Origin: an uncultured Polyangiaceae bacterium
Lineage (GTDB): Bacteria; Myxococcota_A; Polyangia; Polyangiales; Polyangiaceae
Length of the DNA: 28,367 nt
Reading direction: 5' to 3'
Assembly (NCBI GenBank): GCA_964467935.1
Contig: CAYYKK010000064.1
Coordinates: 1 to 28,367 of the forward strand
The stretch's first letter is position 1; each line of letters opens with the position of its first letter. The translations under genes were made by a program, and so were the position numbers. Shown piece by piece: positions 910-19,222 of the stretch. A model generated the notes under the pieces. That model was not told the DNA's origin, did not search any database, and saw nothing but the letters and a program-made list of their open reading frames with translations.

Positions 910-2691
910 CTACCGAGCCCGCTCGAGCTCGAGCCAGAACGTGCTCCCGACGCCAGGCTCGCTGTCGACCCCCAACGTGCCGCCCATCGCCTCGACGAGC
1001 CGCTTCGAGATCGCGAGGCCGATGCCGGTCCCTTCGATCTCGCGCGAAGCGTCGAGGCGCTCGAACGGTTGGAAGAGTCGTGGCAAGAGGGTCGGCTCGA
1101 TCCCGCGGCCCGTGTCGCGCACTTCGATGCGCGCCCTCCCGCTCGCCGCCCTCGACGCCCCGAGGGTGACTTCGCCGCCGTCACGGTTGTACTTCACGCC
1201 GTTCGACAGGAGGTTGAGGAGCACCTGACGGAGCCGCTGCTCGTCGGCCATCGCCGAGCCGCTCGCGTCCGCGTCGATCGAGACGCGCACGCCGCGATCG
1301 CGCGCGACCGGCTCCACTTGCCTCGCGCACGCCTCGAAGAGCGCGCGCAGATCGACCGGCTCGGCCACGAGATCGAGCCGTCCGCTCTCGACGCGGGACA
1401 GATCCAGCACCTCGTCGATGAGCCCGAGCAGGTGACCGCCCGCGCGGAGGATCTCGCGCACGTTCTCCGCCTGCTCGGCGGCGAGCACGTGCCGTTGGTC
1501 CACCTCGAGGAGCTGGGAGAAGCCGAGGATCGCGTTGAGCGGCGTCCTCAGCTCGTGGCTCATGCGCGAGAGAAACTCGCTCTTCGCTTCGCTCGCGCGC
1601 TCCGCCTCGTTCTTCGCGATCAGGAGCTGCTCGGTGCGCTGCGCCACCCGATCCTCGAGATCCTGGTTCAGCCTCCGGAGCGCCTCCTCGGCGAACGCCT
1701 CCTCGGTGACGTCCTTGAGCACGGCGAAGAACCCCTTCGGCCGTCCGTCGGCGCCCAGCTCCGGGACGAGATCGACGTCGAACGCGCGCTCGTCCCCCGT
1801 GGACGACGCGAGCGCCTCGCGGAACGAGAGGCGCTCGCCGGCGAGGACCCGCCCGAGCCTCTCGTCGAGCAGACGGTGATGGCTCTCGCCGACGATCTCG
1901 CGCACGGTCCGCTTCTCGAGATCCTCCGGGGAGGCGCCGTAGAACTCGGCGTAGCTGCGGTTCGCGTAGAGGCAACGCTGCTCGCGATCGCCGTGGTAGA
2001 TCATCGCGGGGACGCTCTCGGCGACGAGGCGGATCTCGCGCTCTTTGTCGGCGAGGTCCGCGGCGCGCGCCTCGAGCGCGAGCCCGAGGCCCCGCACCTC
2101 GGCGATCCGGTTGCGGTAGCTCGCGACGAGGTACCTGATGAGGACGGCCGCGGAGACGAACACGGTGCCCTGCACGACGCAGTAGAGCAGCGGCGGCGAC
2201 GGCGGCGGGAGGTGGAACGCGGCGCGCGCCTCGGCGAGCCCGAGCCCCAGCGCGGCGAGCGACGACAGGATCGCGAGGGTCATCGCAGCGCGAGGGCTCC
2301 AGAGCCACCCCGTGAGGAGGATGACCTGCGGGAACAGGATCATCACCGGCGCCCGAACGCCGCCGTTCGAGAACGCCTGCTCGATCGCGACCGCCCACAC
2401 GCCGATCGCGAGCACACGCACCGTCGCCCGGACCCGACCGCGCGACAGCAGGAACCACGCGACCGCGGCGAGCACGATGAGCGCGGCCGGGCCCGATGCG
2501 CGGCGGGTCTGCTCGGGCGCCACGATGGCGAGCGCGACGAGGAAGAGCGACGCGCCGACCAACGTGAGGCGAATGCTGAGCCGCAGAAACGCGAGAGACG
2601 GCTCCCAGAACATGGGCTCGTCGACTCTCTCCTCGGGCTCCTGCATCGGCGGGCGAGGAGTGTAATCCACCCGCGGTGACTCCCGCGTCAC
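910..2691 (-). CDS. Membrane-bound sensor histidine kinase: 5-6 TM helices, PAS, HisKA, HATPase_c. No response regulator in the window
   Basis: H-box HELRTPLNAILGFSQLLE, N-box LLSNGVKYNRDGG, G-boxes DTGRGIEP and GTGIGLAISKRLVEAMGG. The N-terminal half is hydrophobic (LFLVALAIVAP, LIVLAAVAWFLL, LAIGVWAVAI, VMILFPQVILLTGWLW, LAILSSLAALGLGL, VFVSAAVLIRYLV) and is followed by a PAS-like segment. 2691 is a GTG start. An ATG alternative at 2646 (MQEPEE...) is equally plausible, and neither has a clear SD. Confidence 0.85.
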   Translation of the reverse strand: MTRESPRVDYTPRPPMQEPEERVDEPMFWEPSLAFLRLSIRLTLVGASLFLVALAIVAPEQTRRASGPAALIVLAAVAWFLLSRGRVRATVRVLAIGVWAVAIEQAFSNGGVRAPVMILFPQVILLTGWLWSPRAAMTLAILSSLAALGLGLAEARAAFHLPPPSPPLLYCVVQGTVFVSAAVLIRYLVASYRNRIAEVRGLGLALEARAADLADKEREIRLVAESVPAMIYHGDREQRCLYANRSYAEFYGASPEDLEKRTVREIVGESHHRLLDERLGRVLAGERLSFREALASSTGDERAFDVDLVPELGADGRPKGFFAVLKDVTEEAFAEEALRRLNQDLEDRVAQRTEQLLIAKNEAERASEAKSEFLSRMSHELRTPLNAILGFSQLLEVDQRHVLAAEQAENVREILRAGGHLLGLIDEVLDLSRVESGRLDLVAEPVDLRALFEACARQVEPVARDRGVRVSIDADASGSAMADEQRLRQVLLNLLSNGVKYNRDGGEVTLGASRAASGRARIEVRDTGRGIEPTLLPRLFQPFERLDASREIEGTGIGLAISKRLVEAMGGTLGVDSEPGVGSTFWLELERAR

Positions 2692-2776
2692 GTCTTTGCG
2701 CGTGACCGAGGCGTCGCGCGGGGACGAGATGGCCCTCGACCTCTCCGTCGCTTCCTGGTCCCATCGAGGAGGGTCG

Positions 2777-3211
2777 ATGAGCGTCTACTACGTGAACGAG
2801 GCGGCGTTCGAGATCGACGATGCGGCGTTCGACGACCGGACGGTGCACGTGCTCGCGTCGCGCGAGGAGCTCGAGGGAGACGTCAGTCTGCTCGTCTCGA
2901 GGAGCCGCTACCGCCCCGGCGAGTCGCTCCTCGACAACGTGGCGCGCCACCTGGAGCGCGAGAGGCGTTCGTTCGCGGGATACCGCCAGCTCGACCTTCG
3001 TCAGCTCCGTGTCGACGGGGCGCCCGCGGTCGACGTCTCGACGCGATGGCGCGGCGCCGCCGGCCTCGTCTACCAACGCCAGGTCCACATCGGCCTCGAG
3101 CGCGTCGTGCTCTTGGTCGTCGCGACGGGATCGGTGGCGGAACGAGAGGCGTGCGACGCTCACGTCGAGCGCGCCTTGCGGACGTTTCGAGCACGCGAGG
3201 AGGGAACATGA
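2777..3211 (+). CDS. DUF1795-family protein (EagT6/EagR/DcrB-like effector-associated chaperone fold), 144 aa
   Basis: ATG at 2777 with SD gaggaggg 4 nt upstream. The track's longer 2696 start is N-terminal junk. MSVYYVNEAAFEIDDAAFDDRTVHVLA...SLLVSRSRYRPGESLLDNVARHL...FAGYRQLDLRQLRVDGAPAVDVSTRWRGAAGLVYQRQVHIGLERVVLLVVAT is colinear with the EagT6/DcrB pattern (x-NEG-f-LPD-W-D-sVNVL ... SLvISRD-lp-g-s ... GYqLLeqr-v-dGrpA ... QrQVyl-lgeR-lvLtaT). The stop overlaps the next gene's ATG (ATGA). Confidence 0.7.
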   Translation: MSVYYVNEAAFEIDDAAFDDRTVHVLASREELEGDVSLLVSRSRYRPGESLLDNVARHLERERRSFAGYRQLDLRQLRVDGAPAVDVSTRWRGAAGLVYQRQVHIGLERVVLLVVATGSVAEREACDAHVERALRTFRAREEGT

Positions 3212-4452
3212 CCGGAAAGCACCACGCCGCCCCGAAGGCGAAGCAGAAGGCGCCCGCGAAGAGCCCCGAGGCCAAGACGCCGCCGAAGAAGAAGAAGAGC
3301 ACGCGACACTTGGCGGTGAAGTACGAGAGCGACGGGATGAGCATCGCGGAGTTCGAGAAGCTCTCCGCGAAGAAGAAGGGCACGAGCGTCGAGGAGTGGC
3401 GCAAGAGCTCGCTCGACGCCTTGAAGAAGGCGGGCAAGGGCAGCGATCTCGCGACGGCCGCCAAGTTCCTGGAAGATCGGAGCTGGACCGACATGACGAA
3501 GAACCCGGAGGGCGACGATGGCGCGATGAAGAGCCTCCTCGACACCGCCGGCTATTCGAAGGCGAAGGGCGATCTGCCGACCCAGCGCGCCTTCTGGAAA
3601 TACCTCTACGACCGCAAGCTCGCGCTCGAGGCCGACTGGCAATACAAGACGAGCGTGTCGTTCGTGACGAAGGACGCGAAGGGCAAAGTCACCGAGCGCG
3701 CCTATGCGGACACGTCGAAGCTCCCCAGCCTCGCGAGGCACGCCGGCGCGACGAACCAGAAGCTCGGGTCGTTCATGAAGATCGTGACCGACAAGGATCC
3801 CGACAACCCGCTTCGTTATGCCCGAATCCTCGACAGCGGCACGCTCGAGCGATCGGAGGCCGAGGTCGGCATGGGCGCGGCGCGCAACCTCGGTGACGCG
3901 TCACCGAACCCCGCGATCGGCCCGACCGACTCGCTGCTCGAGAAGGCGGACGTGTCGACCGTCGCCGCCAATCCAGTGAGCCAAACCGAGTTTCCGATGG
4001 ATGGCATGCTCGACAACGAGCACACCCAATACGCCGGCTGGCTCGCCGAGAACAAGGGCGCGTCGTACGACGATGTCTCGACGAATACCGCTTTGTCGAA
4101 GACCATGGACAAGTACAAGGACGATAAGGCCTTTACCGACTACAAGAAGAAGGTCCAGGACGCGCTCAAGAAGCAGGCCGACGACGCCGCGGCCGGCGAC
4201 CGGGTCGAAAAGGGTGAGAAGACCCGCGTCTTCGTCGGCGAAGAGAAGCGCGAGCTCGCGACGAAGGGCGCCATCACGCAATCCGGCGATCAGCTCAAGG
4301 AGGGTGTCCGGGGCGTCTACGCGGGGAAGAACGGAAAGCCCGTCGCCGTGGTGGGCAGCGGGACGGTGCGCGGCAAGGGCGTGAAGAACGGCGCCGTCCA
4401 CGTCGAGGTGGGCGGCCCCGACACGACCGAAGAGGCGCGGCCTCCCCGCTGA
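3208..4452 (+). CDS. Hypothetical lysine-rich cytoplasmic protein (414 aa) with a histone-H1-like N-terminal tail containing SPKK/TPKK-type motifs
   Basis: ATG at 3208 is preceded by gaggaggg. The start overlaps the DUF1795 stop by 4 nt (ATGA), so the two are translationally coupled. N-terminus: MTGKHHAAPKAKQKAPAKSPEAKTPPKKKKSTRH. The rest is K/D/E-rich with no signal peptide and no TM. GC is visibly lower than the flanks (many aag/gac/tac runs). I recognise no catalytic motif. Confidence 0.6.
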   Translation: MTGKHHAAPKAKQKAPAKSPEAKTPPKKKKSTRHLAVKYESDGMSIAEFEKLSAKKKGTSVEEWRKSSLDALKKAGKGSDLATAAKFLEDRSWTDMTKNPEGDDGAMKSLLDTAGYSKAKGDLPTQRAFWKYLYDRKLALEADWQYKTSVSFVTKDAKGKVTERAYADTSKLPSLARHAGATNQKLGSFMKIVTDKDPDNPLRYARILDSGTLERSEAEVGMGAARNLGDASPNPAIGPTDSLLEKADVSTVAANPVSQTEFPMDGMLDNEHTQYAGWLAENKGASYDDVSTNTALSKTMDKYKDDKAFTDYKKKVQDALKKQADDAAAGDRVEKGEKTRVFVGEEKRELATKGAITQSGDQLKEGVRGVYAGKNGKPVAVVGSGTVRGKGVKNGAVHVEVGGPDTTEEARPPR

Positions 4453-4465
4453 GCACGGCGTCGGC

Positions 4466-7400
4466 TCAGGCGGGCTCGAACAGGATCGGCTCGCGCGCCA
4501 GGACGAACTGGCGGACGAGCTGCTGCGCGTCCGGCGAGAGATCGGCGAAGCGCGCGCCGAAGCCGGGCTGCGTCCACGGAGGCCCCTTGTCCCCCGCCGG
4601 ACGGCTCCACTCGACGACGCCGAGCGTCTCGAGCTCGACGCCGCCCGGGAGGCTCATGCGGAGCGCGACCGTCGACCCGAGGTTCGGCGCCGGACGATAG
4701 GACGCGACGAACACGCCGCCCTCGCGCACGACGTCGCCGTTCTTCCTCCAACGATAGAAGTTCGAGGCGCTCTCGAGATCGATCGCGGCGTCGTAGCGCG
4801 GGTGATTGCCCGCGACCGCCGCCGCCGCCTGACCGATGCGACCCTGGAGGCCCTTCACGAGGCTCGTCAGCTCGCCGAGCCGCTGCTCGACGCGCTGTAC
4901 GGCCGCGCCGACCTCCGGCCCCGTGCCCTGGGAGCGCGCTTGTGCAATGGCCTGTTGCGCTCTTGCAATGGCCTCGTTCTCCTCGGCGCTCGCGCCGGGT
5001 CGCTGCACGAGCGCGCCTTGCCCGTGACCAGGCGGAGGCGGCGCCGCGGCAGGACCGAACCCCGGCAGGCCGATCTGCCCCGGCGGTATCGTCGGCGGCC
5101 GCATCGCCGCGTCGCGCGCCATCTGCTGCGCGTGCTGCGCGACTTGCTGCGCTTGCTGGGCGACCTGTTGGGCCTGCTGCAGCCCCGCCTGCTGCGTCGC
5201 GACGACCTGCCTCGCCATCTGCTGCGCAGCGATCACCGCGTTCTGCGTCTCTCGCGCGACCTGCTCGGCCTCGCGCAGCGCCACCGCCTGCGCGGCTTGT
5301 TGACCGGCGATCTGCGCGCTCGCCTGCGACACCGCGCGCACCTGCGCGGTCGCCTCCGAGACCGCCTCGGAGAGCGCGGCGGCCTGCGCCTCGCTCTCGA
5401 GCCTCGCGTGCGCGCCCGCCTGCGCGAGGCTCTGCGCGAGCGCGTGAACCACGGGCGCGAGGGACGACTCCACCGTCCCGAGCTGCTGCGCGAGGAGCTC
5501 GGCGATCGCGGGGTCGCGCTCGACCTTCACCATCAGCTCCCTCGACGCGAGCTCGGCGAGCGCGGCGTGGAGCTTGTCGAGCTCCTTCGCGACCATCTCC
5601 GCGGGCGTCCTCTGCTGCGCGACCGCCTGGTTCAGCGTCTTGCCGATCCCGTCGAGCTGCGAGCCGAGCGTCCCGAGCGCGCCGGTGACGCGCGCGACGG
5701 GGTCGTCGTCCTTGCCGCCCATCATCTTCACGCGCACGAAGCCCTTCTTGATCTCCTCCCAGCGCCTCGCGCCCTCCTCGGAGAGCCGCCCGCGCATCGA
5801 CGCGAGCTTGAGGAGGTTCTGCTCCGCCCCGGTCGTCAGCGTCTGCGACTCGCCCGCGTAGTGATCGTCGATGAGCGAGTCGACCTCGGCCTCCGTGTGC
5901 GCGGCGACGATCTTCTCCGCGATCTTGTTCATGTTGCGGTAGCTGCCCTGGAGCTTGAACGGAGGCTCGGTGCGGTAGGCGTCGTCCTGCGACGCGGACG
6001 CGATGTACTCGAGATTGACCTGCAACAGCACCTTTTGAACGCGAGAGAGGCGCCTCAGCACCTCGACCATCTCGTTCACCTCGGCGGCCGAATAAGGGTA
6101 CGCGAGCTCGGAGACCGGGATGGCCTCGCCCTCCGACATGCGGATGATCTTGTGGATGTCGGCGGGCTCACGACCCGAGAGCGACGCGAGCGCCTTGTTG
6201 GAGGTGAGCGCGTTCTCGATGTAGCTGAGCGCGAAGAGGTGGTCCTTGCCCTCGAGGATGTCGCCGAGGTTGTACGTGTCGGCGCGGTTCGCGAGCATGT
6301 CGGGGATCTTGAACTTGTCGCCGCTCTCCGTGTACGGGTTGCCCGCCATCACGACGCAGAACTTCTTGCCGCGCAGATCGTAGGTCCGCGTCCGCTTCTT
6401 CCAGACGCCCTCGATGCGGCGCTGCGCGTCGCAGAGCGAGATGAACTTCTGCAAGAGCTCGGGGTGCGTGTGCTGGATGTCGTCGAGATAGAGCATCACG
6501 TTGTTGCCCATCTCGAGCGCGAGGTTGATCTTGTCGACCTCCTGACGCGCGGTCGCGTTCGGCGCCTCTTCGGGGTCGAGCGAGCGGACGTCGTGGCCGA
6601 GCGCGGGGCCGTTCACCTTCATGAAGATGAGGCCGAGCTTGTTCGCCACGTACTCCATGAGGGTCGTCTTGCCGTACCCGGGCGGCGAGATGAGCAGGAG
6701 CAGGCCCATCAGATCGGTGCGCTTCGAGTCGCCCGCGGCGCCCATCTGCTTGGCGAGGTTGTCGCCGACGAGCGGGAGGTACACCTCGTCGATGAGGCGG
6801 TTGCGGACGAACGACGAGAGGATGCGCGGCGTGAACTCGTCGAGCCGGAGGCGCCGGCGCTCGCGCTCGAGCAGCTCTTGCTTGGTCTTTCGGAACGCGC
6901 GGAAGCGCGGGACGCGCTCGACCATGGTCCGCTCGAGCCGACCGAGGAAGGCGTCGAGGCGGATCGTCAGCGACTGGTTCTGGATGAGCGGGTGCTGTCC
7001 GAGGAGCCCCGACGCGACCGACTCGACGACCGCGGACGAGGGTTCCCGCTCGATGCGCCGATCGGTCGCGACGAGCACGCACGCCTCGAGCAGCGCCTGC
7101 GCGTGGGAGGTGAGGTCGGCGTGACGAGCGACGAGCGCCTCGAGCCACGCTCTCACGAGGCCGAGGCGCTCGGCCGGGTGCTTCTCGAGGAAGCGGAGGT
7201 CCTCGTCGAAATCGCGTCGCGCGCTCGCGCGATCGATCTCGGACGAGAGCGCGTCCCTCAGCGTCGTGGCGGAGGCCGACGTGACGAAGCGCGGGCGCTC
7301 GGCCGAGAGCTCCTCGACGAGGTAGCGCGCCGAGACCCGCACGGTCGCGTCGTCGACGGGGACGCGCTCGCCGGCGACGACGATCTCGAAGCGGTGGAGC

Positions 7401-10400
7401 TCGGCGGCGACCCGCAGGTCGCGCTCCACCTCGCGCGCGAGATCGTCCTGCGCGCGTGACGACGCGAGGCGCTCCTTGAGGCGGCCGAAGCTCCGCGCGC
7501 GCCGCGAGAGCAGCCCGCGCTCGACCTCGCCGAGGCTCGCCCACGTGAGGCACGCGAGCGCGCGCGCGTCGCCGCCGTAGCGCAGCAGGCCCGAGGCCTT
7601 CTTCATCGCGACGAGCTTCTCGAGGATGATCGCCGCGTCGACGTCGTGCACGCCGCGCTCGTAGCCCTCCTCGTGTCGATCCTGCGCGTAGGCGCGCACG
7701 ACCTCGAGGATGCCGTTCGGGCGGGTCCCCGCCTCCGTGAGCGACGCGAGCGAGAGGCCGCCCTCGCCCTTCTCCGCGGCGAAGAACACGCTCGCGGCGA
7801 GGTACTCGCCTCGGTAGACGTCGGCGCTCTCCGACGGGAGCGATTGGTCCCACAGATCGCGCGACGCCTCGAGCAGCGGATCCTCGATGCGCTCGTAGAA
7901 GTCCGTGCCCGTGATGTGCGTGTATTGGACGTCGAGCCCCGCGCCCTCGTCGCGACGCGGGACGAGCGCGAGCTCGACGGGCTGCGTGTTGACGTTGAAG
8001 CGGTGCTTGCCGAGCTTGATGACGTCGGCGCCGCCGTCGAAGAGCTCGGTCTTGTCGCGGAGGGCGCGGAGCGCGTCCTGCCTCGCGCTCTTGAGCTTCG
8101 CTTCGACCTCGTCGCCCTTCACCGTGGCGCCGATCGCGAAGAGCTGCTGCGTCAGATCCCGGAGCTTCAGGATCATCGCGTCGGAGGCGAAGTACGTGTT
8201 GAGCTCGTCCGCCGAGGAGAGCGTGCGCGACTTGCGGACGACGCCGGCGATGATGCGCTCGGCCGCGCCCAGGATGTTCTGCGCGCGCTTCTGGCGCTCG
8301 TCGAGCAGCTGCTGACGCTTCGCCGCGATCGCCTCGGTCACCTCTTCGCGCTTCTGCGTGAGCTCGCCGATGAACTCGTCGAACTCGCTGAACTTGCCCT
8401 CGAGCTCCTCGAGCCCGAGGAGCAGGCGCGACAGCTCCGCGTCGCATTTCTCCGGCGTGTCGCAGAGCGCGAGCGCGCTCGTCACGCTCTGCCCGAAGAG
8501 CTTGAACTGCGCGACGAACTCGCCCTTGCCCTCGGCGCTCGAGAGCTCCTTCTTGCGGGCCGCGAGGGTCGCGCGCGCGCGGTTCAGCTGTGAGAAGGCC
8601 TCGCTGATGCCTTCGAGGATGCGCGTCCGCTGCGTCGGGTCCTCGATGTTGAGGCCGTTGATGACGTCCGAGAGGACCGTGAGCCCCTCGCCGACGCGAT
8701 CGACGTCCTCGCGGTGCGGCTTGAGCTCGGTCGCCTTCTTCGCGACGCCGACCTTGTCGACCACGTCGCCGAGGCGCTTCACGAGGGGCGCGAGCGCGGT
8801 CGGCGTCAGGAGGAACGCGACGCACGACTTCGAGACGAGCTCGAACTCCTCGACGACGCGCTTCTCGAGGCCGTCGACCTTCGCGAGGTCCATGTACCTC
8901 ATCTCCTTCAAGGTGATGAGCTGACCGCGTTGCTTGCGGAGATCGCTGAGCGCCCCCATGAACTCTTCGACCGAGCGCATGTCGTCGGGCCGGAGCCCGA
9001 GGAAGAGCTTGTCCTGCGAGTCCTCGGCGGCCGCGAGCGCCTCGGTCGCCCGCTTTCGAATGGCGGCGACCTTCTCGAACTCGTCGATGATGCTCTCGGC
9101 GGTCTTCTTGAGCGCCGAGATCGCCTCCGCGACGTTGCCCGCCTCTTCGTGCGCGACCCAATGGTGGGCGTCCATGATGCGGCGCGCCGTCGCGATGACG
9201 TCCTCGTAGCTCTGCCGCGTCGGCGTCTCCGACAGCGCGACACGCTGGAGCGTGAGCATCTCCGAGATGCCACGGACGAGCTCGGCGTTGCCGAGCTTCG
9301 CGAGGTACGAGCCGTCGGTCGGCGCGGCGGCGGCGAACTCCTGCGTGCAGAAGGGCGTCTGCCAGATCTGCATCGGGTGCACCTTGCTCGCCTCGTCCGT
9401 CAGGGTGCGGAACACGATCATCTTGCCGTCGTCGAAGACCGAGTACCCCTGGCAGAGCAGCGGGTTCTGCACCTCTTTGCGGATGAGGTTGTACGGCAGG
9501 AGCAGGTAGAAGCCGTCCTCGACGCGCTCGAAGACGTAGAGGATGTCCTCGCCGTTCGGCGACTTGATCGCCCGCCGAAACGTGAGGCCGCGGCTGTCGC
9601 CGTCGAAGACCTTGTACTCGCCCGTCCGCAGGTAGTAGCCGCCGGGGAAGATGATCCCCTGGTCCTCGGGGAGCGACACGCACGCCGACTCGATCGAGTC
9701 GATGCGGACGACGCCTTGGGTGCGCGTGTTGAACACGAGATACCGGTAGGCGTTCTCCCGGTACGGCTTGATCTTGAGCAGGATGAGCGCGCCGAGCTTG
9801 ACGTACGCGATGTCCGAGTCGTCGAGCGACTGGTTCGCGTCCTCGACCGGCTCGCGGTAGATCCCGCGACCGTCCTTCGTGTTGTTCTCGATCTTGACCG
9901 TGAGATCACCGCCCACGGTCTCGACGAACACCTCGTCGAGGATCGAAAAATGCGGGTTCTCACCGGGGACTTGATCGTCGCGCGTGCACGGCGTCCAGAC
10001 GAAGTCGTGCTGCTTCGGGGGCGCGAAGTCCTCCTCGCCGCGCGAGTCGATGAAGACGATGTTGCCGGCCTTGTCGATCCCCCAGCGGAAGATCTTCCGA
10101 TCGCTCGGCGACGCGCCGATCTGGAAGACGGCGAGCAGACGCGTGTCGGAGCGCTGGATCTGCAGCAGCTTCGCCTCACGCGTGTAGCGGTAGAGGTCCG
10201 AGAACTCCTTCACGAACGCCGGGTCGGCGAGGTAGTGGCCGGGCTCGATCGGCAGCTGCGGGAGCTCGAACGTCGTGTCCGTCTGACGGAGCTCGTGGAC
10301 GGCGAACACGTCCGAGACGAGCGTCTCCGTCTTGAGGCCGATGAAGACGTTGAAGCCGAAGAGCAGCTTGCCCTGCACCTGGCGGATGTCGCGCGGGACG

Positions 10401-10615
10401 CAGTTGTTCTCGGTCCGCACGCGCTCGGTCGCGAGGAGCGCGAGCTGCGAGGCGCCGAACACCTCGGTGCGGCGCGTGTTCAGCCACTCGGCTTTCTTGC
10501 CGAGCGCGGCCGCCTGCTCGATGAGGCGGCCGCGAATGACGTCGTAGCTGCCGCCTTCGAGCGCCTCGGCGCCCTCGGCGGGCGCCTCGCCGGCTGTCTT
10601 GTCGCCCTCGGCCAT
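4466..10615 (-). CDS. Giant multidomain protein (2049 aa): N-terminal beta-rich region, long helical regions, one MoxR/AAA_5-type AAA+ ATPase module, a Q/A-rich coiled-coil-like tract, and a C-terminal PilZ-like domain of the myxobacterial TIGR02266 type
   Basis: Walker A LLLISPPGYGKTTLMEY (revcomp of about 6670..6705). Walker B MLYLDDIQH (about 6470..6500). Sensor-1-like VVMAGNPYTESGDKFKIPDMLANRAD. Q/A repeats AQQAGLQQAQQVAQQAQQVAQHAQQMA. The C-terminus NFYRWRKNGDVVREGGVFVASYRPAPNLGSTVALRMSLPGGVELETLGVVEWSRP...GFGARFADLSPDAQQLVRQFV matches the GG-FV...LP-G....G-VVW...G-G-rF..L pattern of TIGR02266/PilZ-like domains. The ATG at 10615 lies 12 nt after the flotillin stop. Every long ORF antisense to it is a GC-frame artefact. 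Confidence 0.85.
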   Translation of the reverse strand: MAEGDKTAGEAPAEGAEALEGGSYDVIRGRLIEQAAALGKKAEWLNTRRTEVFGASQLALLATERVRTENNCVPRDIRQVQGKLLFGFNVFIGLKTETLVSDVFAVHELRQTDTTFELPQLPIEPGHYLADPAFVKEFSDLYRYTREAKLLQIQRSDTRLLAVFQIGASPSDRKIFRWGIDKAGNIVFIDSRGEEDFAPPKQHDFVWTPCTRDDQVPGENPHFSILDEVFVETVGGDLTVKIENNTKDGRGIYREPVEDANQSLDDSDIAYVKLGALILLKIKPYRENAYRYLVFNTRTQGVVRIDSIESACVSLPEDQGIIFPGGYYLRTGEYKVFDGDSRGLTFRRAIKSPNGEDILYVFERVEDGFYLLLPYNLIRKEVQNPLLCQGYSVFDDGKMIVFRTLTDEASKVHPMQIWQTPFCTQEFAAAAPTDGSYLAKLGNAELVRGISEMLTLQRVALSETPTRQSYEDVIATARRIMDAHHWVAHEEAGNVAEAISALKKTAESIIDEFEKVAAIRKRATEALAAAEDSQDKLFLGLRPDDMRSVEEFMGALSDLRKQRGQLITLKEMRYMDLAKVDGLEKRVVEEFELVSKSCVAFLLTPTALAPLVKRLGDVVDKVGVAKKATELKPHREDVDRVGEGLTVLSDVINGLNIEDPTQRTRILEGISEAFSQLNRARATLAARKKELSSAEGKGEFVAQFKLFGQSVTSALALCDTPEKCDAELSRLLLGLEELEGKFSEFDEFIGELTQKREEVTEAIAAKRQQLLDERQKRAQNILGAAERIIAGVVRKSRTLSSADELNTYFASDAMILKLRDLTQQLFAIGATVKGDEVEAKLKSARQDALRALRDKTELFDGGADVIKLGKHRFNVNTQPVELALVPRRDEGAGLDVQYTHITGTDFYERIEDPLLEASRDLWDQSLPSESADVYRGEYLAASVFFAAEKGEGGLSLASLTEAGTRPNGILEVVRAYAQDRHEEGYERGVHDVDAAIILEKLVAMKKASGLLRYGGDARALACLTWASLGEVERGLLSRRARSFGRLKERLASSRAQDDLAREVERDLRVAAELHRFEIVVAGERVPVDDATVRVSARYLVEELSAERPRFVTSASATTLRDALSSEIDRASARRDFDEDLRFLEKHPAERLGLVRAWLEALVARHADLTSHAQALLEACVLVATDRRIEREPSSAVVESVASGLLGQHPLIQNQSLTIRLDAFLGRLERTMVERVPRFRAFRKTKQELLERERRRLRLDEFTPRILSSFVRNRLIDEVYLPLVGDNLAKQMGAAGDSKRTDLMGLLLLISPPGYGKTTLMEYVANKLGLIFMKVNGPALGHDVRSLDPEEAPNATARQEVDKINLALEMGNNVMLYLDDIQHTHPELLQKFISLCDAQRRIEGVWKKRTRTYDLRGKKFCVVMAGNPYTESGDKFKIPDMLANRADTYNLGDILEGKDHLFALSYIENALTSNKALASLSGREPADIHKIIRMSEGEAIPVSELAYPYSAAEVNEMVEVLRRLSRVQKVLLQVNLEYIASASQDDAYRTEPPFKLQGSYRNMNKIAEKIVAAHTEAEVDSLIDDHYAGESQTLTTGAEQNLLKLASMRGRLSEEGARRWEEIKKGFVRVKMMGGKDDDPVARVTGALGTLGSQLDGIGKTLNQAVAQQRTPAEMVAKELDKLHAALAELASRELMVKVERDPAIAELLAQQLGTVESSLAPVVHALAQSLAQAGAHARLESEAQAAALSEAVSEATAQVRAVSQASAQIAGQQAAQAVALREAEQVARETQNAVIAAQQMARQVVATQQAGLQQAQQVAQQAQQVAQHAQQMARDAAMRPPTIPPGQIGLPGFGPAAAPPPPGHGQGALVQRPGASAEENEAIARAQQAIAQARSQGTGPEVGAAVQRVEQRLGELTSLVKGLQGRIGQAAAAVAGNHPRYDAAIDLESASNFYRWRKNGDVVREGGVFVASYRPAPNLGSTVALRMSLPGGVELETLGVVEWSRPAGDKGPPWTQPGFGARFADLSPDAQQLVRQFVLAREPILFEPA

Positions 10616-10627
10616 GACGGTGGAGCC

Positions 10628-12784
10628 TTACCGACCCGCCGACTTGAGCTGGTCGATCCCCATCTCCTTCGCGCGCGCGGCGAGGTCGGCGAGCTTCTTC
10701 CTCGCCGCGTCGTCGACGCTCGCGCCGCCCATGAGCCCCTGGATGACGCCCGAGAGGCTCGCGCCGTCGGCGCCGCCGAGGTGGTCGCCGAGCGCGGTGC
10801 GCAGCGTGTCGCTGTTCGCGAGCACGGTGTCGAACGACTGCCCGAGGCTCATCGCCTTCACGAACCGATCGAAGAACTGGCCGTCGCCGCCGACGATCTG
10901 GATCTTCGCCTCGCTGAAGGCCTCCGCGAGGATCTTCGACTGCTCCTGGGCGATGTCGCGCCTCGTCTTGAGCGTCTCCATCGCGACCTCGCGCTGGGCC
11001 TGCAGGCGGATGCGGAACTCCTCGTGCTCGCGGCTCGCCGGATCGAGCGCCTTCATCGCCGCGGCCTTCTCGGTGATGCCCGCGGCCTCCGCCATGAGCT
11101 TCTCGCGCGCGGCGTGCGCCTCGGCCATGCCGACCTTCTCGATCGCCTGCGCGTCGGCCTCGCGGACCTTCACCTTGGCGAGGCCCTTCTGCTCCTCGCC
11201 GTGCGCCTCGGCGAGCAGGCGCTCCTTCACGACGAGCGCCTCCGCGAGCCCCTTCTTCTCGATCGCGAGGGCCTCGGCCTCCGCGACGTGCACCTTGGCG
11301 AGGCCCTGCTTCTCCTCGCCCGTCGCGGTGGCCGTCAGCTTCTCGAGCGTCACGCGCGCCTCGACCATGCCCTGCTTCTCGATCGCGGCGGCGTCCGCCT
11401 CACGGACGCGGACCTGCGCGAGCCCCGCGGCCGCGTGCTCGGCCTGGACGCCCTCGGCGAGGCGGATCTTCGCGCGCGCGAGCTTGTCGGCGGCCTCGAG
11501 ATCCGCGTCGGCCGTGACGAGCTTCTCACGCGCGCGGAACTTCGCGCTCTCCTCGCTCGCCTCGGCGGCCTTCACCTGCTTCACGAGCGCCTCGGCGGCC
11601 TGCGCCTCGGCGTTGATCCGGACCGACTCCTTCAGGCGGTTCGCCTCGGCGACGACGCGCACGTCCTTGATGCGCTCCTCCTCCTCGGCGACGGTCTTGT
11701 CGACGACGATGCGCGCGCGCACCACGTCGGCGATCTCCTTCTTCTTGACCTCGATGTCCTTCTCTTTCGAGATGCGCTGCAGCTCGACCTCGCGCTCGCG
11801 CGAGAGCGCCTCGAGCTGCTGGGCCTTCTTCACGCGCTCGATCTCGACGGCGACCTCGCGCTCCTTGTTCTGGCGGGCGACGAGCACGGCGCGCTCCTTC
11901 GCCTCGTTGGCGACGAGCGACTCCTCCTCGTTCTTCGCGCGGAGGAGCAGCGTCTCCTTCTGCTCCTTCTCGGAGATGCGGGCGGCCTCGTTCTGCTCAC
12001 GCGCCTGGGCGACGGCGATCTCGCGCGCCTTCTTCGCCTCGGCCTCCGCGCGGCGCTGCTCGAACCGGAAAATCGCCTCGTCGGCGGTCAGGTTCTGGCT
12101 GCCCATCTCCATGCGCTCCTTCTGGCGGAGCTCGTTCGTCTTCACGTTCTGGATGACGGTGAGATCGGTGATCTTCCGAATGCCCTCGGAGTCCATGATG
12201 TTGTCTTTGTCGAGGGCCTCGACCGGCGTCTGCTCGAGGTAGTCGATCGCGCAGTCGTCGAGGTGGAAGCCGTTCAGATCGGTGCCGATCACCTTGATGA
12301 TCTCGTCCTTGAAGAGCTGCCGCTCCTTGTAGAGATCCTCGAAGTTCATCCCCTTGCCGACCGTCTTCAGCGCCTCGGAGAACTTCGCCGCGAAGAGCTC
12401 CTGGATGACGCGCTGATCGCTCGCGCGCGCGCAGCCGATCGCCTGCGCGACCTTGAGCACGCTGTCCGCCGTCTTGTTCACGCGCACGAAGAACGTGACC
12501 TCGATGTCCGCGCGGATGTTGTCCTTGCAGATGAGGCCGTCCTTGTTGCGGCGATCGATCGCGATCGTCTTGACGGAGATGTCCATCATCTCGGCGCGGT
12601 TGATGATCGGGTAGACGACCGCGCCCGTGAAGAACACCTGCGGCTCGTTCTTCATCGTGTTCACGATGAGGGCCGTGCCCTGATCGACCTGCCGGTAGAA
12701 CTTCGCGACGATGATGATGACCCCGAAGACGACGAGGGCGATGACGCCGACGACGATCAAGATCAAGACGAGCTGATCGGGCAT
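10628..12784 (-). CDS. Flotillin (SPFH/band-7 family, FloT/YqiK-like), 718 aa
   Basis: N-terminal TM anchor LVLILIVVGVIALVVFGVIIIVAKFY. The SPFH core runs QGTALIVNTMKNEPQVFFTGAVVYPIINRAEMMDISVKTIAIDRRNKDGLICKDNIRADIEVTFFVRV...DLYKERQLFKDEIIKVIG. The C-terminal half is E/A-rich with flotillin-type repeats (KQGLAKVHVAEAEALAIEKKGLAEA..EEQKGLAKVKVREADAQAIEKVGMAEA). I chose the ATG at 12784 because a perfect AAGGAG SD sits 9 nt upstream. The track's 12802 start is an upstream GTG. Confidence 0.9.
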   Translation of the reverse strand: MPDQLVLILIVVGVIALVVFGVIIIVAKFYRQVDQGTALIVNTMKNEPQVFFTGAVVYPIINRAEMMDISVKTIAIDRRNKDGLICKDNIRADIEVTFFVRVNKTADSVLKVAQAIGCARASDQRVIQELFAAKFSEALKTVGKGMNFEDLYKERQLFKDEIIKVIGTDLNGFHLDDCAIDYLEQTPVEALDKDNIMDSEGIRKITDLTVIQNVKTNELRQKERMEMGSQNLTADEAIFRFEQRRAEAEAKKAREIAVAQAREQNEAARISEKEQKETLLLRAKNEEESLVANEAKERAVLVARQNKEREVAVEIERVKKAQQLEALSREREVELQRISKEKDIEVKKKEIADVVRARIVVDKTVAEEEERIKDVRVVAEANRLKESVRINAEAQAAEALVKQVKAAEASEESAKFRAREKLVTADADLEAADKLARAKIRLAEGVQAEHAAAGLAQVRVREADAAAIEKQGMVEARVTLEKLTATATGEEKQGLAKVHVAEAEALAIEKKGLAEALVVKERLLAEAHGEEQKGLAKVKVREADAQAIEKVGMAEAHAAREKLMAEAAGITEKAAAMKALDPASREHEEFRIRLQAQREVAMETLKTRRDIAQEQSKILAEAFSEAKIQIVGGDGQFFDRFVKAMSLGQSFDTVLANSDTLRTALGDHLGGADGASLSGVIQGLMGGASVDDAARKKLADLAARAKEMGIDQLKSAGR

Positions 12785-12900
12785 GTGAGCGGGCTCCTTC
12801 ACGAAGGCGCGGGGAGACCGAGGCCCCCCGTGAGCGACGGGGAGAGTACATCAACTGAGACGGCCGAACAGCGCGACGGCGCGCTCGCGGTGGGCACGGC

Positions 12901-17856: not shown

Positions 17857-17946
17857 CTTCCCGCTCGAGCGCAGCGAAGCGGTGGCCCCGCGCGGTCTGG
17901 GCCCATCCCGTGAGGCGCCCTCGTCGCGCCATCGCGGACGAGACGC

Positions 17947-19035
17947 TCAGGGAGCCGGCGTGAAGAACGCATTGCCCGGATCGATGGGCGCGCAGCCGAT
18001 CGTGGCCGGGACGCCACAAAAAGGCGTCGAGTGCGGAGACGAGCCCGGACCCCCTGGGAGGTAGATCTCATCGCTGCAGCACCCCTGCACGTAGACGGGA
18101 TCCGGCGAAAGCGCGTCGCCGGGGGAAATCCACATCGCAGGGCAGTCGATGCTGCCGTCCGGGAATACGCAGTGCATCGAGCTCGCAGGGGACGCCACGC
18201 AATGCGTCGCCGCAGCGTCGATGGAGTTGATCGCGGGGTTGCACGCGGCAGCGAACTTGCCCAAGGAGAGGAGGCTCTGACAGCCCGAGAAGTTCGCAGA
18301 GTTGGACCCGCTGGTGCAGATCACGGTCGGGCACGTCACGTTGGCGCAGGCATCACCGCTGCAGACGAACACCCCCGAGCCCGGCGGGCCTGCCTCCACG
18401 CAGCTTTGATTGCTGAGACATGGAGGATGGCAGGATCCCATTCCGCTGCCTGTCGAGGAACCCGTTCCAGCGGCGGTCGTGCTGCTGCTCGAGGAGCTCG
18501 ACGTCGTCGAGCCCCCAAAGCACTCTGGTTGGCAGCTGGCCAAGTCGCATCCCATCGCGGCTTCGAACTTCGTGACCGCGGCGGCCGGCAATCCACTCTC
18601 GCATGCGGCCGTACAGGCTGAGTCCTTGCACGGCCCCGCGCAGGTGACGATCCCCACACAGGCAGGGTCGGCCGCGCAAGCTTGGTTTTGTGCACAACAA
18701 TTCGCCTTGACGCAGTCGTCGCAGGTCCCGGTGTACGCGAAGCCGCATGCATTGCTCGTGCATCCGACGGGCGAACAAGTGATCCTGTCGTACGCGCAGA
18801 ACTTCCCCTGCTGACAAGTCGGGCAGGTCGCGGGCTTGCACACCATTCCCCCGCCGGCCTTGGGCAGGCAGGCCATGCCCTGGCCCTGGCAAGGGGTCTG
18901 CGCGTCGCACGGAACCCCGCACCCGCTGAAGGTCGCCGCGGCGCCGCCCGAACCGCCCGGCGGGGGCTGCACCGGGGGGTTGCACGCCGAGGCGAGCAAG
19001 AGACCAACGAGCGCTGGAGCAGCACGGAGGAGCAT
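17947..19035 (-). CDS. Secreted cysteine-rich lipoprotein, 363 aa from ATG 19035
   Basis: MLLRAAPALVGLLLASAC carries a lipobox (L-A-S-A-C). More than 50 Cys sit in motifs such as CGVPCDAQTPCQGQGMAC, CKPATCPTCQQGKFC, CDDCVKANCCAQNQACAADPACVGIVTCAGPC. A poly-Ser/Thr linker STTSSSSSSSTTAAGTGSSTGSG is present. The track's upstream extension to 19380 lacks a signal peptide and is rejected. Confidence 0.65.
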   Translation of the reverse strand: MLLRAAPALVGLLLASACNPPVQPPPGGSGGAAATFSGCGVPCDAQTPCQGQGMACLPKAGGGMVCKPATCPTCQQGKFCAYDRITCSPVGCTSNACGFAYTGTCDDCVKANCCAQNQACAADPACVGIVTCAGPCKDSACTAACESGLPAAAVTKFEAAMGCDLASCQPECFGGSTTSSSSSSSTTAAGTGSSTGSGMGSCHPPCLSNQSCVEAGPPGSGVFVCSGDACANVTCPTVICTSGSNSANFSGCQSLLSLGKFAAACNPAINSIDAAATHCVASPASSMHCVFPDGSIDCPAMWISPGDALSPDPVYVQGCCSDEIYLPGGPGSSPHSTPFCGVPATIGCAPIDPGNAFFTPAP

Positions 19036-19072
19036 CACGGTGCCTACGATCGTGCACGAGCAAGGACGCGGC

Positions 19073-19119
19073 GATACCCGTGGGACCACGTAGGTCGACC
19101 CCGTGATCTCACGGGTATC
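19073..19119. promoter_or_regulatory. Perfect 10-bp inverted repeat GATACCCGTG-N27-CACGGGTATC in the divergent intergenic region between two lipoprotein genes
   Basis: Read directly from 19073..19082 and 19110..19119. The spacer itself contains ggtcgacc and repeated ccgtg. Function is inferred. Confidence 0.3.
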
Positions 19120-19222
19120 TCCGACCACGCACGATCGATATCCGAAGACGATGCCCTCACCGTTTTGCTCTCCTTTCGGATCGTCGGGTACGCCGCATCC
19201 AACTGCCGCGACGCAGGGTCGA

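What the first reader, a model, noticed from the sequence alone, without database searches (positions are those of the whole stretch)
2777..4452. Orphan DUF1795 (EagT6-like) chaperone translationally coupled to a lysine-rich, H1-tailed protein of lower GC
DUF1795 proteins such as EagT6/EagR are best known as chaperones for the N-terminal TM helices of PAAR/Rhs T6SS effectors (established). The ATGA-coupled downstream gene here has no PAAR, Rhs or TM segment. It is a 414-aa K/D/E-rich soluble protein whose N-terminus resembles a histone H1 / SPKK minor-groove-binding tail. Both genes have strong GAGGAGGG SDs, and the second has visibly lower GC than the flanks, which suggests horizontal acquisition. 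It could be a non-canonical effector or chaperone pair, or a DNA-targeting cargo.
Basis: partly seen in the sequence, partly recalled or inferred. Interest (0 to 1): 0.6.

Follow-up and report, generated by a model that had tools for sequence, protein, structure and literature searches.

The report
Eag chaperone with reversed PAAR effector
These two coupled genes most likely encode a type VI secretion chaperone and its toxin, a sugar-cutting enzyme with a hidden spike-tip (PAAR-like) domain at its tail end instead of its head end, an arrangement that known chaperone–toxin pairs of this kind do not have.

Summary
ORF1 (2777-3211) is a DUF1795/DcrB protein that matches EagT6 end to end. It overlaps ORF2 (3208-4452, 414 aa) by ATGA. 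Both genes have GAGGAGGG 3 nt before their ATG.

Much of the interpretation does not hold.
- ORF2 does carry a PAAR-type domain. It is cryptic, degenerate and C-terminal (residues ~326-407).
- The lower GC comes from lysine AAG codons. GC3 is 0.90, like the neighbours, so it is not evidence of foreign DNA.
- The K/A/P-rich tail is disordered, not conserved (dN/dS ~1) and absent from many homologues.
- The conserved core is a double-psi beta-barrel closest to GH75 chitosanase, and it keeps the catalytic Asp/Glu.

Relatives are known only from Polyangiaceae genome bins and unassigned metagenome contigs. Eleven of 13 separately recovered non-identical loci outside the window have an adjacent Eag gene. 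In six Polyangiaceae bins and one metagenome locus the pair sits in VgrG – P-loop protein – Eag – effector, followed in all but one by a DUF2169 gene. The same C-terminal domain is fused elsewhere to glucosaminidase, phage-tail lysozyme and YkuD domains.

Best reading: an orphan type VI secretion chaperone–effector module with reversed domain order, no transmembrane segment, no prePAAR motif and no adjacent immunity gene. It is a new variant of a known kind. Nothing was tested experimentally.

The parts
2766..2773 (+). Shine-Dalgarno GAGGAGGG of ORF1, 3 nt before the ATG
   Evidence: It is one of only two + strand copies in the window.
2777..3211 (+). ORF1: 144-aa cytoplasmic Eag-type (DUF1795/DcrB) chaperone
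   Evidence: Pfam PF08786 at 61.4 bits. EagT6 (6xrf/1tu1) matches end to end, E 6e-6. The start is fixed by the M[AS][IV]YYVNEA N-termini of the partner Eag proteins (alignment A5). dN/dS is 0.30.
3197..3204 (+). Shine-Dalgarno GAGGAGGG of ORF2, lying inside the end of ORF1
3208..3211 (+). ATGA: the ORF2 start overlaps the ORF1 stop
   Evidence: Tight spacing is also seen in L004 (2-nt gap), L010 (1-nt gap) and L018 (where the Eag and effector tblastn matches abut at position 563).
3208..4452 (+). ORF2: 414-aa effector (tail + GH75-like domain + linker + PAAR-like domain)
3208..3306 (+). Residues 1-33: disordered K/A/P-rich tail, variable across the family
   Evidence: pLDDT <50. GC3 is 0.96 over codons 1-50, which span the tail, so it is coding. 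The tail is absent in P0008, P0011, P0014, P0015, P0019, P0020 and P0023. dN/dS is 1.1.
3307..3339 (+). Residues 34-44: first conserved strand, carrying E40-S-D42-G43. This is the proposed counterpart of the GH75 DxDG acidic pair (inferred).
   Evidence: Position 42 is D in 33 and E in 4 sequences. G43 is present in 36 of 37. GH75 invariant residues are given in PMC9485262.
3340..3627 (+). Residues 45-140: helical insertion, absent from the family relative P0059
   Evidence: AlphaFold2 helices 46-135 at pLDDT ~90. In P0059 the DSDG motif lies about 10 residues before its equivalent of the WQ..TSV motif, against about 100 residues in ORF2.
3628..4002 (+). Residues 141-265: double-psi beta-barrel catalytic core, with D209 (3832-3834) and E219 (3862-3864)
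4003..4182 (+). Residues 266-325: helical linker
   Evidence: Helices 270-329. dN/dS is 0.20.
4183..4428 (+). Residues 326-407: degenerate PAAR-like cone domain. It has no Cys/His motif, and one PAAR-type motif remains (PVAV).
   Evidence: The profile of A2 hits the PAAR proteins 9rce_c, 6ox6, 7pq5 and 4jiv. hhalign against the Pfam-PAAR-positive relatives gives 99.2%, E 2.4e-19. The AlphaFold2 model has pLDDT 84.8. The top six Foldseek hits are all PAAR proteins. dN/dS is 0.18.

Best explanation
ORF1 and ORF2 are an orphan type VI secretion (T6SS) chaperone–effector module of a Polyangiaceae-type myxobacterium.

ORF2 is a specialised effector with reversed domain order:
- a dispensable disordered Lys-rich tail;
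- a GH75-like double-psi beta-barrel glycoside hydrolase domain that keeps the catalytic Asp/Glu, interrupted by a helical insertion;
- a helical linker;
- a C-terminal degenerate PAAR-like cone.

The cone would cap a VgrG spike encoded elsewhere in the genome. ORF1, an EagT6-like DUF1795 protein made in step with ORF2 through the ATGA coupling, would hold the effector in the cytoplasm until it is loaded.

On firing, the enzyme would ride at the spike tip and cut a wall glycan of the target: peptidoglycan, or a chitosan-like GlcN polymer.

Shown here: the domain identities, the gene linkage, purifying selection and the VgrG-island context of relatives.

Inferred: secretion by T6SS in this organism, what part of ORF2 the chaperone binds, the DxDG equivalence, enzymatic activity and the substrate.
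For: Chaperone:
- Pfam DcrB at 61.4 bits.
- EagT6 is the best match among solved structures, over the full length.
- No signal peptide is visible in the sequence.

PAAR-like domain:
- The ORF2-family profile retrieves proteins that pass Pfam PAAR_motif: P0059 at 33.9 bits and P0075 at 36.3 bits.
- 21 of 35 aligned domains hit PAAR_motif.
- The domain profile hits solved PAAR proteins: SalCis10 at 1.5e-9, Tas1 at 1.2e-5, Tre23 at 9.5e-5 and VCA0105 at 4.4e-4.
- hhalign of the ORF2 subgroup against the PAAR-positive subgroup gives 99.2%, E 2.4e-19.
- The AlphaFold2 model (pLDDT 84.8) finds only PAAR proteins in its top six. T4 gp5.4 has TM 0.55/0.52 and c1882 has 0.54/0.52.

Enzyme domain:
- hhalign of A1 against the Pfam-GH75-positive P0059 gives 96.9% and aligns D209 and E219 to its Asp and Glu.
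- E219 is invariant in 40 sequences.

Linkage:
- An Eag gene is adjacent in 11 of 13 separately recovered non-identical loci outside the window.
- Chaperone and effector identities fall together: 68/47/46/48/39% for the chaperone against 76/43/40/42/31% for the effector.

T6SS context:
- L010, L023, L024, L025, L027, L028 and L030 carry VgrG – P-loop protein – Eag – effector. A DUF2169 homologue follows in all of them except L027.

Selection:
- dN/dS is 0.18-0.30 for all folded parts.

Wall theme:
- The same C-terminal domain is fused to Glucosaminidase, Phage_lysozyme2 and YkuD domains (weak Pfam matches for most YkuD members), with a sub-threshold Tlde1 hit.
- P0009 adds a PG_binding_1 domain.
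- An M15-like + PG_binding_1 gene follows the effector in L010 and L025.
Against: - No VgrG, Hcp, DUF2169 or other T6SS gene lies in the 28-kb window. The rest of the genome is unseen.
- ORF2 itself does not reach Pfam PAAR_motif or Glyco_hydro_75 at E<=1.
- Family profiles without P0059 and P0075 do not hit V-Csn by sequence.
- Foldseek E-values for the small PAAR-like model are weak (0.3-2).
- The Cys-x-His motif kept by VgrG-linked relatives is lost in the ORF2 subgroup. Spike binding could therefore be impaired.
- Characterised Eag chaperones bind transmembrane helices, and ORF2 has none (PMC7773334).
- No immunity gene is adjacent.
- Many double-psi beta-barrel proteins (expansins, kiwellin) are not enzymes.
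Confidence: 0.68

Rival explanations
1. The pair is a retired or repurposed descendant of a T6SS module. After leaving the VgrG island and losing the Cys/His motif of its PAAR-like domain, it would no longer ride a T6SS spike. It might use another contractile injection system, or act inside the producer.
For: - The window has no T6SS genes.
- The ORF2 subgroup has lost the C-x-H motif kept by the VgrG-linked relatives.
- The best PDB sequence hit of the domain profile is SalCis10, whose name suggests a contractile-injection-system component rather than a T6SS PAAR.
- Many DUF1795 genes occur in genomes without T6SS (PMC7714669).
Against: - The PAAR-like domain is the most constrained part of the protein (dN/dS 0.18).
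- Orphan Eag–effector pairs away from T6SS clusters are usual.
- The Eag partnership is retained in five orphan lineages.
- ORF2 has no signal peptide, so a wall-cutting enzyme needs some export route.
Confidence: 0.14
2. The double-psi beta-barrel core is a non-catalytic glycan-binding or wall-loosening module, like an expansin or kiwellin. The protein would then act mainly as a structural or sharpening spike tip rather than as a hydrolase.
Against: - E219 is invariant. Positions 209 and 42 are always acidic apart from one Gly at position 209. They match the GH75 catalytic residues (PMC9485262).
- Sister architectures carry bona fide hydrolase domains.
Confidence: 0.13
3. This is the first reader's alternative: a DNA-targeting or nucleoid-binding cargo whose histone-H1-like Lys-rich tail binds the DNA minor groove, acquired horizontally.
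For: - The tail holds 11 K/R, 5 P and 6 A in 33 residues and includes TPPKKKK.
- The overall pI is 9.3.
- Total GC is below that of most neighbouring genes.
Against: - No SPKK motif and no linker-histone or other DNA-binding domain is present.
- The tail is absent in many homologues that keep the Eag partner.
- The tail has dN/dS 1.1.
- GC3 and Lys codon choice match the host.
- The conserved body is a glycosidase fold plus a PAAR-like domain.
Confidence: 0.03

Closest known systems
EagT6–Tse6 and the other Eag / prePAAR effector pairs (Ahmad et al. 2020, PMC7773334)
   Same: A DUF1795 chaperone gene lies immediately upstream of a PAAR-type specialised effector. ORF1 aligns end to end with EagT6 and keeps Q102 and the Val/Val positions of the binding cradle. 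Relatives sit next to VgrG.
   Different: - There is no AARxxDxxxH prePAAR motif at the N-terminus and no transmembrane region.
- The PAAR-like domain is C-terminal and the enzymatic domain N-terminal.
- The toxin is a glycosidase fold, not a cytoplasm-acting toxin.
- The pair occurs in Polyangiaceae, not among the 15 proteobacterial genera named in that study.
- The chaperone's binding target is unknown.
DUF2169 – PIPY (DUF4150) non-canonical spike-tip complexes (Sachar et al. 2025, PMC11883445)
   Same: A non-canonical PAAR-like tip lacks the standard PAAR motifs and is paired with a dedicated chaperone. DUF2169 genes lie in the same Polyangiaceae VgrG islands.
   Different: The chaperone next to this family is DUF1795, not DUF2169. 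The domain is related to PF05488 PAAR, and no DUF4150 hit appeared in the Pfam scans.
GH75 chitosanases, e.g. viral V-Csn (7TVL; PMC9485262)
   Different: ORF2 does not reach the Pfam GH75 threshold. It has a ~95-residue helical insertion, is fused to a PAAR-like domain, and has no signal peptide. Its substrate is unknown.
Spike-borne wall hydrolases: the phage T4 gp5 lysozyme with the gp5.4 PAAR tip, and the Vibrio cholerae VgrG3 lysozyme domain (from my own knowledge)
   Same: A wall-cutting enzyme is physically attached to the puncturing spike of a contractile machine. T4 gp5.4 is the top structural match of the ORF2 C-terminal domain.
   Different: Here the enzyme is fused to the PAAR tip itself rather than to the VgrG/gp5 trimer, and it has a different fold.
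Histone H1 / SPKK tails
   Same: The first 33 residues share the Lys/Ala/Pro-rich composition.
   Different: ORF2 has no SPKK motif, no globular H1 domain and no conservation of the tail.

Membership tests
DUF1795 / Eag T6SS chaperones (ORF1) | Match to Pfam PF08786 above the gathering score | tested here: met
   61.4 bits against 27.2, covering 126 of 127 profile positions
DUF1795 / Eag T6SS chaperones (ORF1) | Cytoplasmic Eag type rather than the periplasmic DcrB lipoprotein type; closest to characterised Eag proteins | tested here: met
   The N-terminus MSVYYVNEAAFEIDD has no signal or lipobox sequence. The best PDB hits are EagT6 (E 6e-6, full length) and then SciW.
DUF1795 / Eag T6SS chaperones (ORF1) | Encoded next to a PAAR-type effector | tested here: met
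   ATGA-coupled to ORF2, which carries a PAAR-like domain. An Eag gene is adjacent in 11 of 13 separately recovered non-identical loci outside the window.
DUF1795 / Eag T6SS chaperones (ORF1) | Binds and shields the effector's transmembrane helices | tested here: not met
   No family member has a hydrophobic segment. The maximum Kyte-Doolittle 19-residue mean is 0.50 in ORF2 and at most 1.32 in the 18 relatives examined. Binding itself cannot be tested with these tools.
prePAAR effectors, class I/II (ORF2) | N-terminal prePAAR motif AARxxDxxxH | tested here: not met
   A regular-expression search of ORF2 and 84 relatives found one hit only, in fragment P0040 at the start of its PAAR-like domain. 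ORF2 has DAAAGDRVEK at that position.
prePAAR effectors, class I/II (ORF2) | One or two N-terminal transmembrane regions; the toxin lies C-terminal to PAAR | tested here: not met
   There are no transmembrane regions. The enzyme domain is N-terminal and the PAAR-like domain C-terminal.
PAAR (PF05488) spike-tip domains (ORF2 residues 326-407) | Match to the Pfam PAAR_motif model | tested here: not met
   ORF2's own domain gives no hit at E<=1, while 21 of 35 aligned relatives do hit.
PAAR (PF05488) spike-tip domains (ORF2 residues 326-407) | Homology to bona fide PAAR domains by profile methods | tested here: met
   hhalign gives 99.2%, E 2.4e-19 against the PAAR-positive relatives. The domain profile hits 9rce_c, 6ox6, 7pq5 and 4jiv.
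PAAR (PF05488) spike-tip domains (ORF2 residues 326-407) | Conical beta-fold like the solved PAAR proteins | tested here: inconclusive
   The model has pLDDT 84.8. The top six Foldseek hits are all PAAR proteins with TM 0.44-0.55, but their E-values are 0.3-2.
PAAR (PF05488) spike-tip domains (ORF2 residues 326-407) | Three PAAR motifs and His/Cys metal ligands near the tip (from my own knowledge of Shneider et al. 2013) | tested here: not met
   Only PVAV remains. The C-x-H motif of the relatives is replaced by a two-residue gap and Thr.
PAAR (PF05488) spike-tip domains (ORF2 residues 326-407) | Binds the tip of a VgrG trimer | not testable with these tools
   There is only contextual support: VgrG lies upstream of relatives in 7 loci.
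GH75 chitosanases (ORF2 residues 34-265) | Match to Pfam PF07335 | tested here: not met
   ORF2 gives no hit. The relative P0059 reaches 29.4 bits against a cutoff of 27.
GH75 chitosanases (ORF2 residues 34-265) | Double-psi beta-barrel fold of GH75 | tested here: met
GH75 chitosanases (ORF2 residues 34-265) | Universally conserved Asp148 and Glu157 (V-Csn numbering) | tested here: met
   D209 (D in 25, E in 14 sequences) and E219 (40/40) align to them through P0059 and V-Csn.
GH75 chitosanases (ORF2 residues 34-265) | Universally conserved Asp34 and Asp36 (the DxDG motif) | tested here: inconclusive
   E40-S-D42-G43 fits the motif. Position 42 is always acidic, but position 40 is C, D, E or Q. 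No alignment or superposition confirms the equivalence.
GH75 chitosanases (ORF2 residues 34-265) | Endo-hydrolysis of chitosan | not testable with these tools
   This needs an enzyme assay.
Histone H1 / SPKK DNA-binding tails | S/TPKK repeats or a linker-histone domain, conserved in homologues | tested here: not met
   No motif and no domain are present, and the tail is absent from many homologues.

The most novel reading that the evidence does not exclude
This family, and its siblings with glucosaminidase, tail-lysozyme or YkuD heads, would define an undescribed class of 'reverse' T6SS effectors. A wall-degrading enzyme is fused in front of a C-terminal PAAR-like tip. An Eag chaperone serves a client with no transmembrane helix, so Eag proteins would not be only transmembrane-domain chaperones. 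With the enzyme on the very tip and no immunity gene beside it, the module could let myxobacterial T6SS breach walls the producer does not share, such as chitosan-containing fungal walls or de-N-acetylated Gram-positive peptidoglycan.
Probability: 0.3. Interest if true: 0.78.

Novelty: new variant of a known kind. Interest (0 to 1): 0.6.

Why it matters
Eag (DUF1795) chaperones are currently explained as cytoplasmic holders of effector transmembrane helices. PAAR effectors are described as having an N-terminal PAAR domain and a C-terminal toxin.

Here a conserved, selected Eag partnership exists with a soluble client that has the opposite domain order.
- If the chaperone really binds this client, the model of what Eag proteins recognise must widen.
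- Searches that look only downstream of PAAR domains miss a whole set of wall-degrading effectors.
- GH75-like glycosidases would join the T6SS toxin repertoire.
- The module gives a concrete, small and testable pair for asking how myxobacterial predators use T6SS against walled prey.
- An engineered PAAR/chitosanase T6SS delivery has been published (PMC11966926, seen only by title and abstract). This pair would be a natural counterpart.

Tried and rejected
- Pfam and NCBIfam scans of ORF2 gave nothing usable. The one weak hit, VitD-bind_III at E 0.016, was rejected as chance.
- The profile of the close family (A1) against PDB sequences found nothing relevant.
- The family profile without P0059 and P0075 (A4) did not reach V-Csn. 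The sequence link to GH75 is therefore transitive only.
- The first full-length AlphaFold2 model left residues 330-414 at pLDDT <50. Only a domain-only run with a deeper alignment gave a usable model.
- A genome-contig scan with A3 failed because no conserved stretch was available. The scan with A1 found no relative, so the window's own genome is not among the GTDB representatives.
- The context of P0081 was uninformative (1.1-kb contig).
- Literature searches for 'C-terminal PAAR' and variants returned no paper. This is absence within an open-access text search, not proof that the architecture is unreported.
- The promoter and terminator scan of 2500-4700 found nothing.
- The horizontal-transfer idea was rejected on GC3 and codon usage.
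- I considered that the conserved N-terminal strand LAVKYESDG might be a prePAAR equivalent. I rejected this in favour of the GH75 DxDG motif, because P0059 has DSDG there.
Distances between D42, D209 and E219 could not be measured.
Full report
**1. What is in the sequence**

The window is 69% GC. At the stated coordinates there are two same-strand genes.
- ORF1 (2777-3211) encodes 144 aa.
- ORF2 (3208-4452) encodes 414 aa.
- The ORF2 ATG overlaps the ORF1 TGA as ATGA.
- The octamer GAGGAGGG occurs only twice on the + strand of the window. Both copies lie exactly 3 nt before one of these start codons.
- ORF1 diverges from a PAS histidine kinase gene (910-2691, minus strand).
- ORF2 converges on a 2049-aa DUF3686/AAA/PilZ gene, with 13 nt between the stop codons.

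**2. ORF1**

- ORF1 matches Pfam PF08786 (DcrB, the former DUF1795) at 61.4 bits against a cutoff of 27.2.
- Among solved structures, its best sequence match is the T6SS chaperone EagT6, residues 1-136 to 1-136, E 6e-6. SciW follows weakly.
- It has no signal sequence.
- The Eag genes that sit next to ORF2 homologues form one clade. They share 68, 47, 46, 48 and 39% identity with ORF1 and have invariant blocks DRTVHVL and Q.Q.H (A5).
- Some of these invariant positions coincide with contact positions of EagT6 reported in PMC7773334.

**3. ORF2 composition**

- ORF2 is 13% Lys. Its total GC is 0.651.
- GC3 is 0.90, within the 0.83-0.97 of the confidently called neighbours. The deficit is all in codon position 1 (0.60).
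- Lys is encoded 52 AAG to 2 AAA, like the large neighbouring gene.
- The low GC is therefore a consequence of amino-acid composition. It gives no evidence of foreign origin.
- The first 33 residues hold 11 K/R, 5 P and 6 A, but no SPKK motif.
- They are predicted disordered.
- They are missing in many homologues that still have the Eag partner.
- Against the closest available gene they show dN/dS of about 1.1. The folded parts show 0.18-0.25.

**4. The family**

- A word-indexed search found only 15 relatives.
- An exhaustive profile search of 1.84 billion representatives found 72 at E<=1e-3.
- Every named source is Polyangiaceae or Polyangium.
- No Pfam or NCBIfam model covers ORF2.

**5. 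The C-terminal domain is PAAR-like**

- Many of the 72 hits match only the last ~85 residues of the profile.
- Several of those pass or approach Pfam PAAR_motif: P0059 at 33.9 bits, P0075 at 36.3 bits and P0047 at 22.7 bits.
- In an alignment of 35 such domains (A2), 21 hit PAAR_motif. ORF2's own copy does not.
- The A2 profile hits solved PAAR proteins: SalCis10 at 1.5e-9, Tas1 at 1.2e-5, Tre23 at 9.5e-5 and VCA0105 at 4.4e-4.
- hhalign of the 11 ORF2-type domains against the other, PAAR-positive group gives 99.2% probability, E 2.4e-19, over 86 columns.
- Folding ORF2 residues 326-414 with A2 gave pLDDT 84.8.
- The six best Foldseek matches in the PDB are all PAAR proteins: T4 gp5.4, phiKZ gp163.1, the P1 and KP1 baseplate tips, c1882 and VCA0105. 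Their TM scores are 0.44-0.55, although their E-values are weak.
- The ORF2 subgroup is degenerate. The C-x-H motif of relatives is replaced by a gap and Thr, and only one PAAR-type motif (PVAV) is left.
- Even so, this is the most constrained part of the gene (dN/dS 0.18).

The statement that the partner has no PAAR is therefore wrong in substance. The domain is simply at the other end of the protein and below Pfam's reach.

**6. The body is a GH75-like double-psi beta-barrel**

- The full-length model has pLDDT of about 90 for residues 30-330.
- Foldseek's top hit is the viral GH75 chitosanase V-Csn (probability 0.99).
- By sequence the link is transitive. The close-family profile A1 aligns to P0059, which passes Pfam GH75, at 96.9% probability. 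That alignment pairs D209 and E219 with P0059's Asp and Glu.
- The family core profile built without P0059 scores 57.5 bits on P0059.
- A profile that includes P0059 and P0075 hits V-Csn at 4.4e-9. Profiles without them do not.
- In V-Csn, E157Q abolishes activity and D148N lowers it five-fold. D34 and D36 are the other universally conserved acids (PMC9485262).
- Across 40 family members E219 is invariant. Position 209 is always Asp or Glu, apart from one Gly. Position 42 is always Asp or Glu and is followed by a near-invariant Gly.
- I infer that E40-S-D42-G43 is the DxDG motif. Residues 45-140 would then be a helical insertion, absent from P0059.

ORF2 is thus GH75-like but not a demonstrable GH75 member.

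**7. Linkage to Eag and to T6SS**

- An Eag gene lies beside the effector gene in these relatives or loci: P0005, P0011, P0013, P0010, P0019, P0059, L017, L018, L021 and L022.
- It is same-strand and tightly spaced in some loci, and divergent in others.
- Two loci (P0014/L008 and L020) lack it. Both come from samples that also hold an Eag-linked paralogue.
- The flanking genes are mostly unrelated between loci, though L001 and L007 share theirs. The two genes therefore move as a unit.
- One metagenome locus (L010) and six Polyangiaceae genome bins (L023, L024, L025, L027, L028, L030) show the order VgrG – ~309-aa Walker-A protein – Eag (twice in L025) – effector – sometimes an M15-like/PG_binding_1 protein – a DUF2169 protein, for which L027 gave no match.
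- DUF2169 is reported to co-occur strictly with T6SS spike genes (PMC11883445).
- The window holds no homologue of VgrG, the Walker-A protein or DUF2169, and no other T6SS domain.
- The window pair is therefore an orphan copy of a module whose relatives live in VgrG islands.

**8. The wall theme**

The same C-terminal domain is fused to several wall-enzyme heads:
- Glucosaminidase (P0065, 57.6 bits);
- Phage_lysozyme2 (P0068, 122.8 bits);
- YkuD (P0081 at 23.5 bits, just above the 23.4 cutoff; P0072 and P0074 below it), with a sub-threshold Tlde1 hit in P0070;
- GH75-like (P0059, and P0083 by its visible GDVGPS…GENS motif).

P0009 carries an added PG_binding_1 domain. All heads are wall enzymes and all precede the PAAR-like domain.

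A large survey of PAAR proteins describes toxins fused as C-terminal extensions of PAAR or encoded by neighbouring genes, and does not describe N-terminal heads (PMC8651086). A text search for 'C-terminal PAAR' found nothing.

**9. Mechanism proposed**

ORF1 and ORF2 are made together.
- Inferred: the Eag dimer holds ORF2 in the cytoplasm.
- Inferred from homology and context: the C-terminal cone docks on a VgrG tip encoded elsewhere.
- Inferred from conserved catalytic residues and sister architectures: on contraction the GH75-like head is carried into the target envelope and cleaves a beta-1,4 glycan, either peptidoglycan or chitosan-like.

What the chaperone grips is unexplained. Characterised Eag clients are transmembrane helices next to a prePAAR motif, and this family has neither. 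By analogy with DUF2169 and PIPY domains, the non-canonical PAAR-like domain or the linker is the likeliest site. These are the parts shared by ORF2 and by the differently headed, Eag-linked P0059.

No immunity gene adjoins the pair here or in four other orphan loci. This would fit a substrate the producer lacks or shields, but that is speculation.

**10. Verdict**

The 'no PAAR', 'foreign GC' and 'H1/DNA' readings are not.

The finding is a new variant of a known kind: an Eag–PAAR effector pair with reversed architecture, a GH75-like head, no transmembrane domain and no prePAAR motif. It belongs to a small family recorded so far only in Polyangiaceae. Everything is computational. T6SS dependence, chaperone binding and enzymatic activity remain to be shown.

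Noticed in passing
window 4466-10615 (-) and 10628-12802 (-): A 2049-aa protein carries DUF3686 (647 bits), DUF7902, an AAA+ module, a long Gln/Ala-rich stretch and a C-terminal PilZ/TIGR02266-like domain. It converges on ORF2. On its own strand it lies just downstream of a 724-aa Lys/Glu/Ala-rich protein with no family match (12 nt apart), possibly an operon.
   Followed up: partly
L010 2218-3147; matches also in L017, L022-L025, L027, L028 and L030: A ~309-aa protein with a Walker A motif (VVVTGPAASGKT; only weak AAA_16/AAA_21 hits) sits between VgrG and the Eag gene in every Polyangiaceae island examined. It also sits beside Eag in two loci where no VgrG was seen. It may be an undescribed accessory of this module. 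It is absent from the window.
   Followed up: partly
L010 4928-5605; L025 11281-11973: The gene after the effector encodes 225 aa with LAS/M15-like metallopeptidase motifs (SDHNLGNAVD, HTHHCH) plus PG_binding_1, and no signal peptide. It looks like a second wall-degrading cargo rather than an immunity protein.
   Followed up: partly
L025 9074-9493 and 9547-9966: Two tandem Eag (DUF1795) genes precede a single effector gene.
   Followed up: no
L008/L009 (P0014) and L020: These family members have no Eag gene within 6-10 kb. Each comes from a sample that also holds an Eag-linked paralogue (L002, L017). One chaperone may therefore serve two effectors.
   Followed up: no
P0040 (93-aa fragment), residues 4-13: A perfect prePAAR-type motif AARKADRLDH lies at the start of this relative's PAAR-like domain, contiguous with the domain. 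ORF2 has DAAAGDRVEK at the same place (window ~4183-4212).
   Followed up: partly
N-termini of P0005, P0009, P0021, P0022, P0025, P0047, P0049 and P0068: Lys/Ala/Pro-rich disordered N-terminal tails recur in separate branches of the family, and on a sibling with a phage-lysozyme head. Their sequences are unrelated. The composition seems to be selected even though the sequence is not, and its function is unknown.
   Followed up: partly
window ~17900-21100: Overlapping ORFs on both strands (17947-19380 -, 18682-21036 +, 19103-20266 +) have lower GC3 (0.62-0.83). The two scanned (17950-19380 - and 19103-20263 +) gave no Pfam hit. The coding assignment here is unclear.
   Followed up: no
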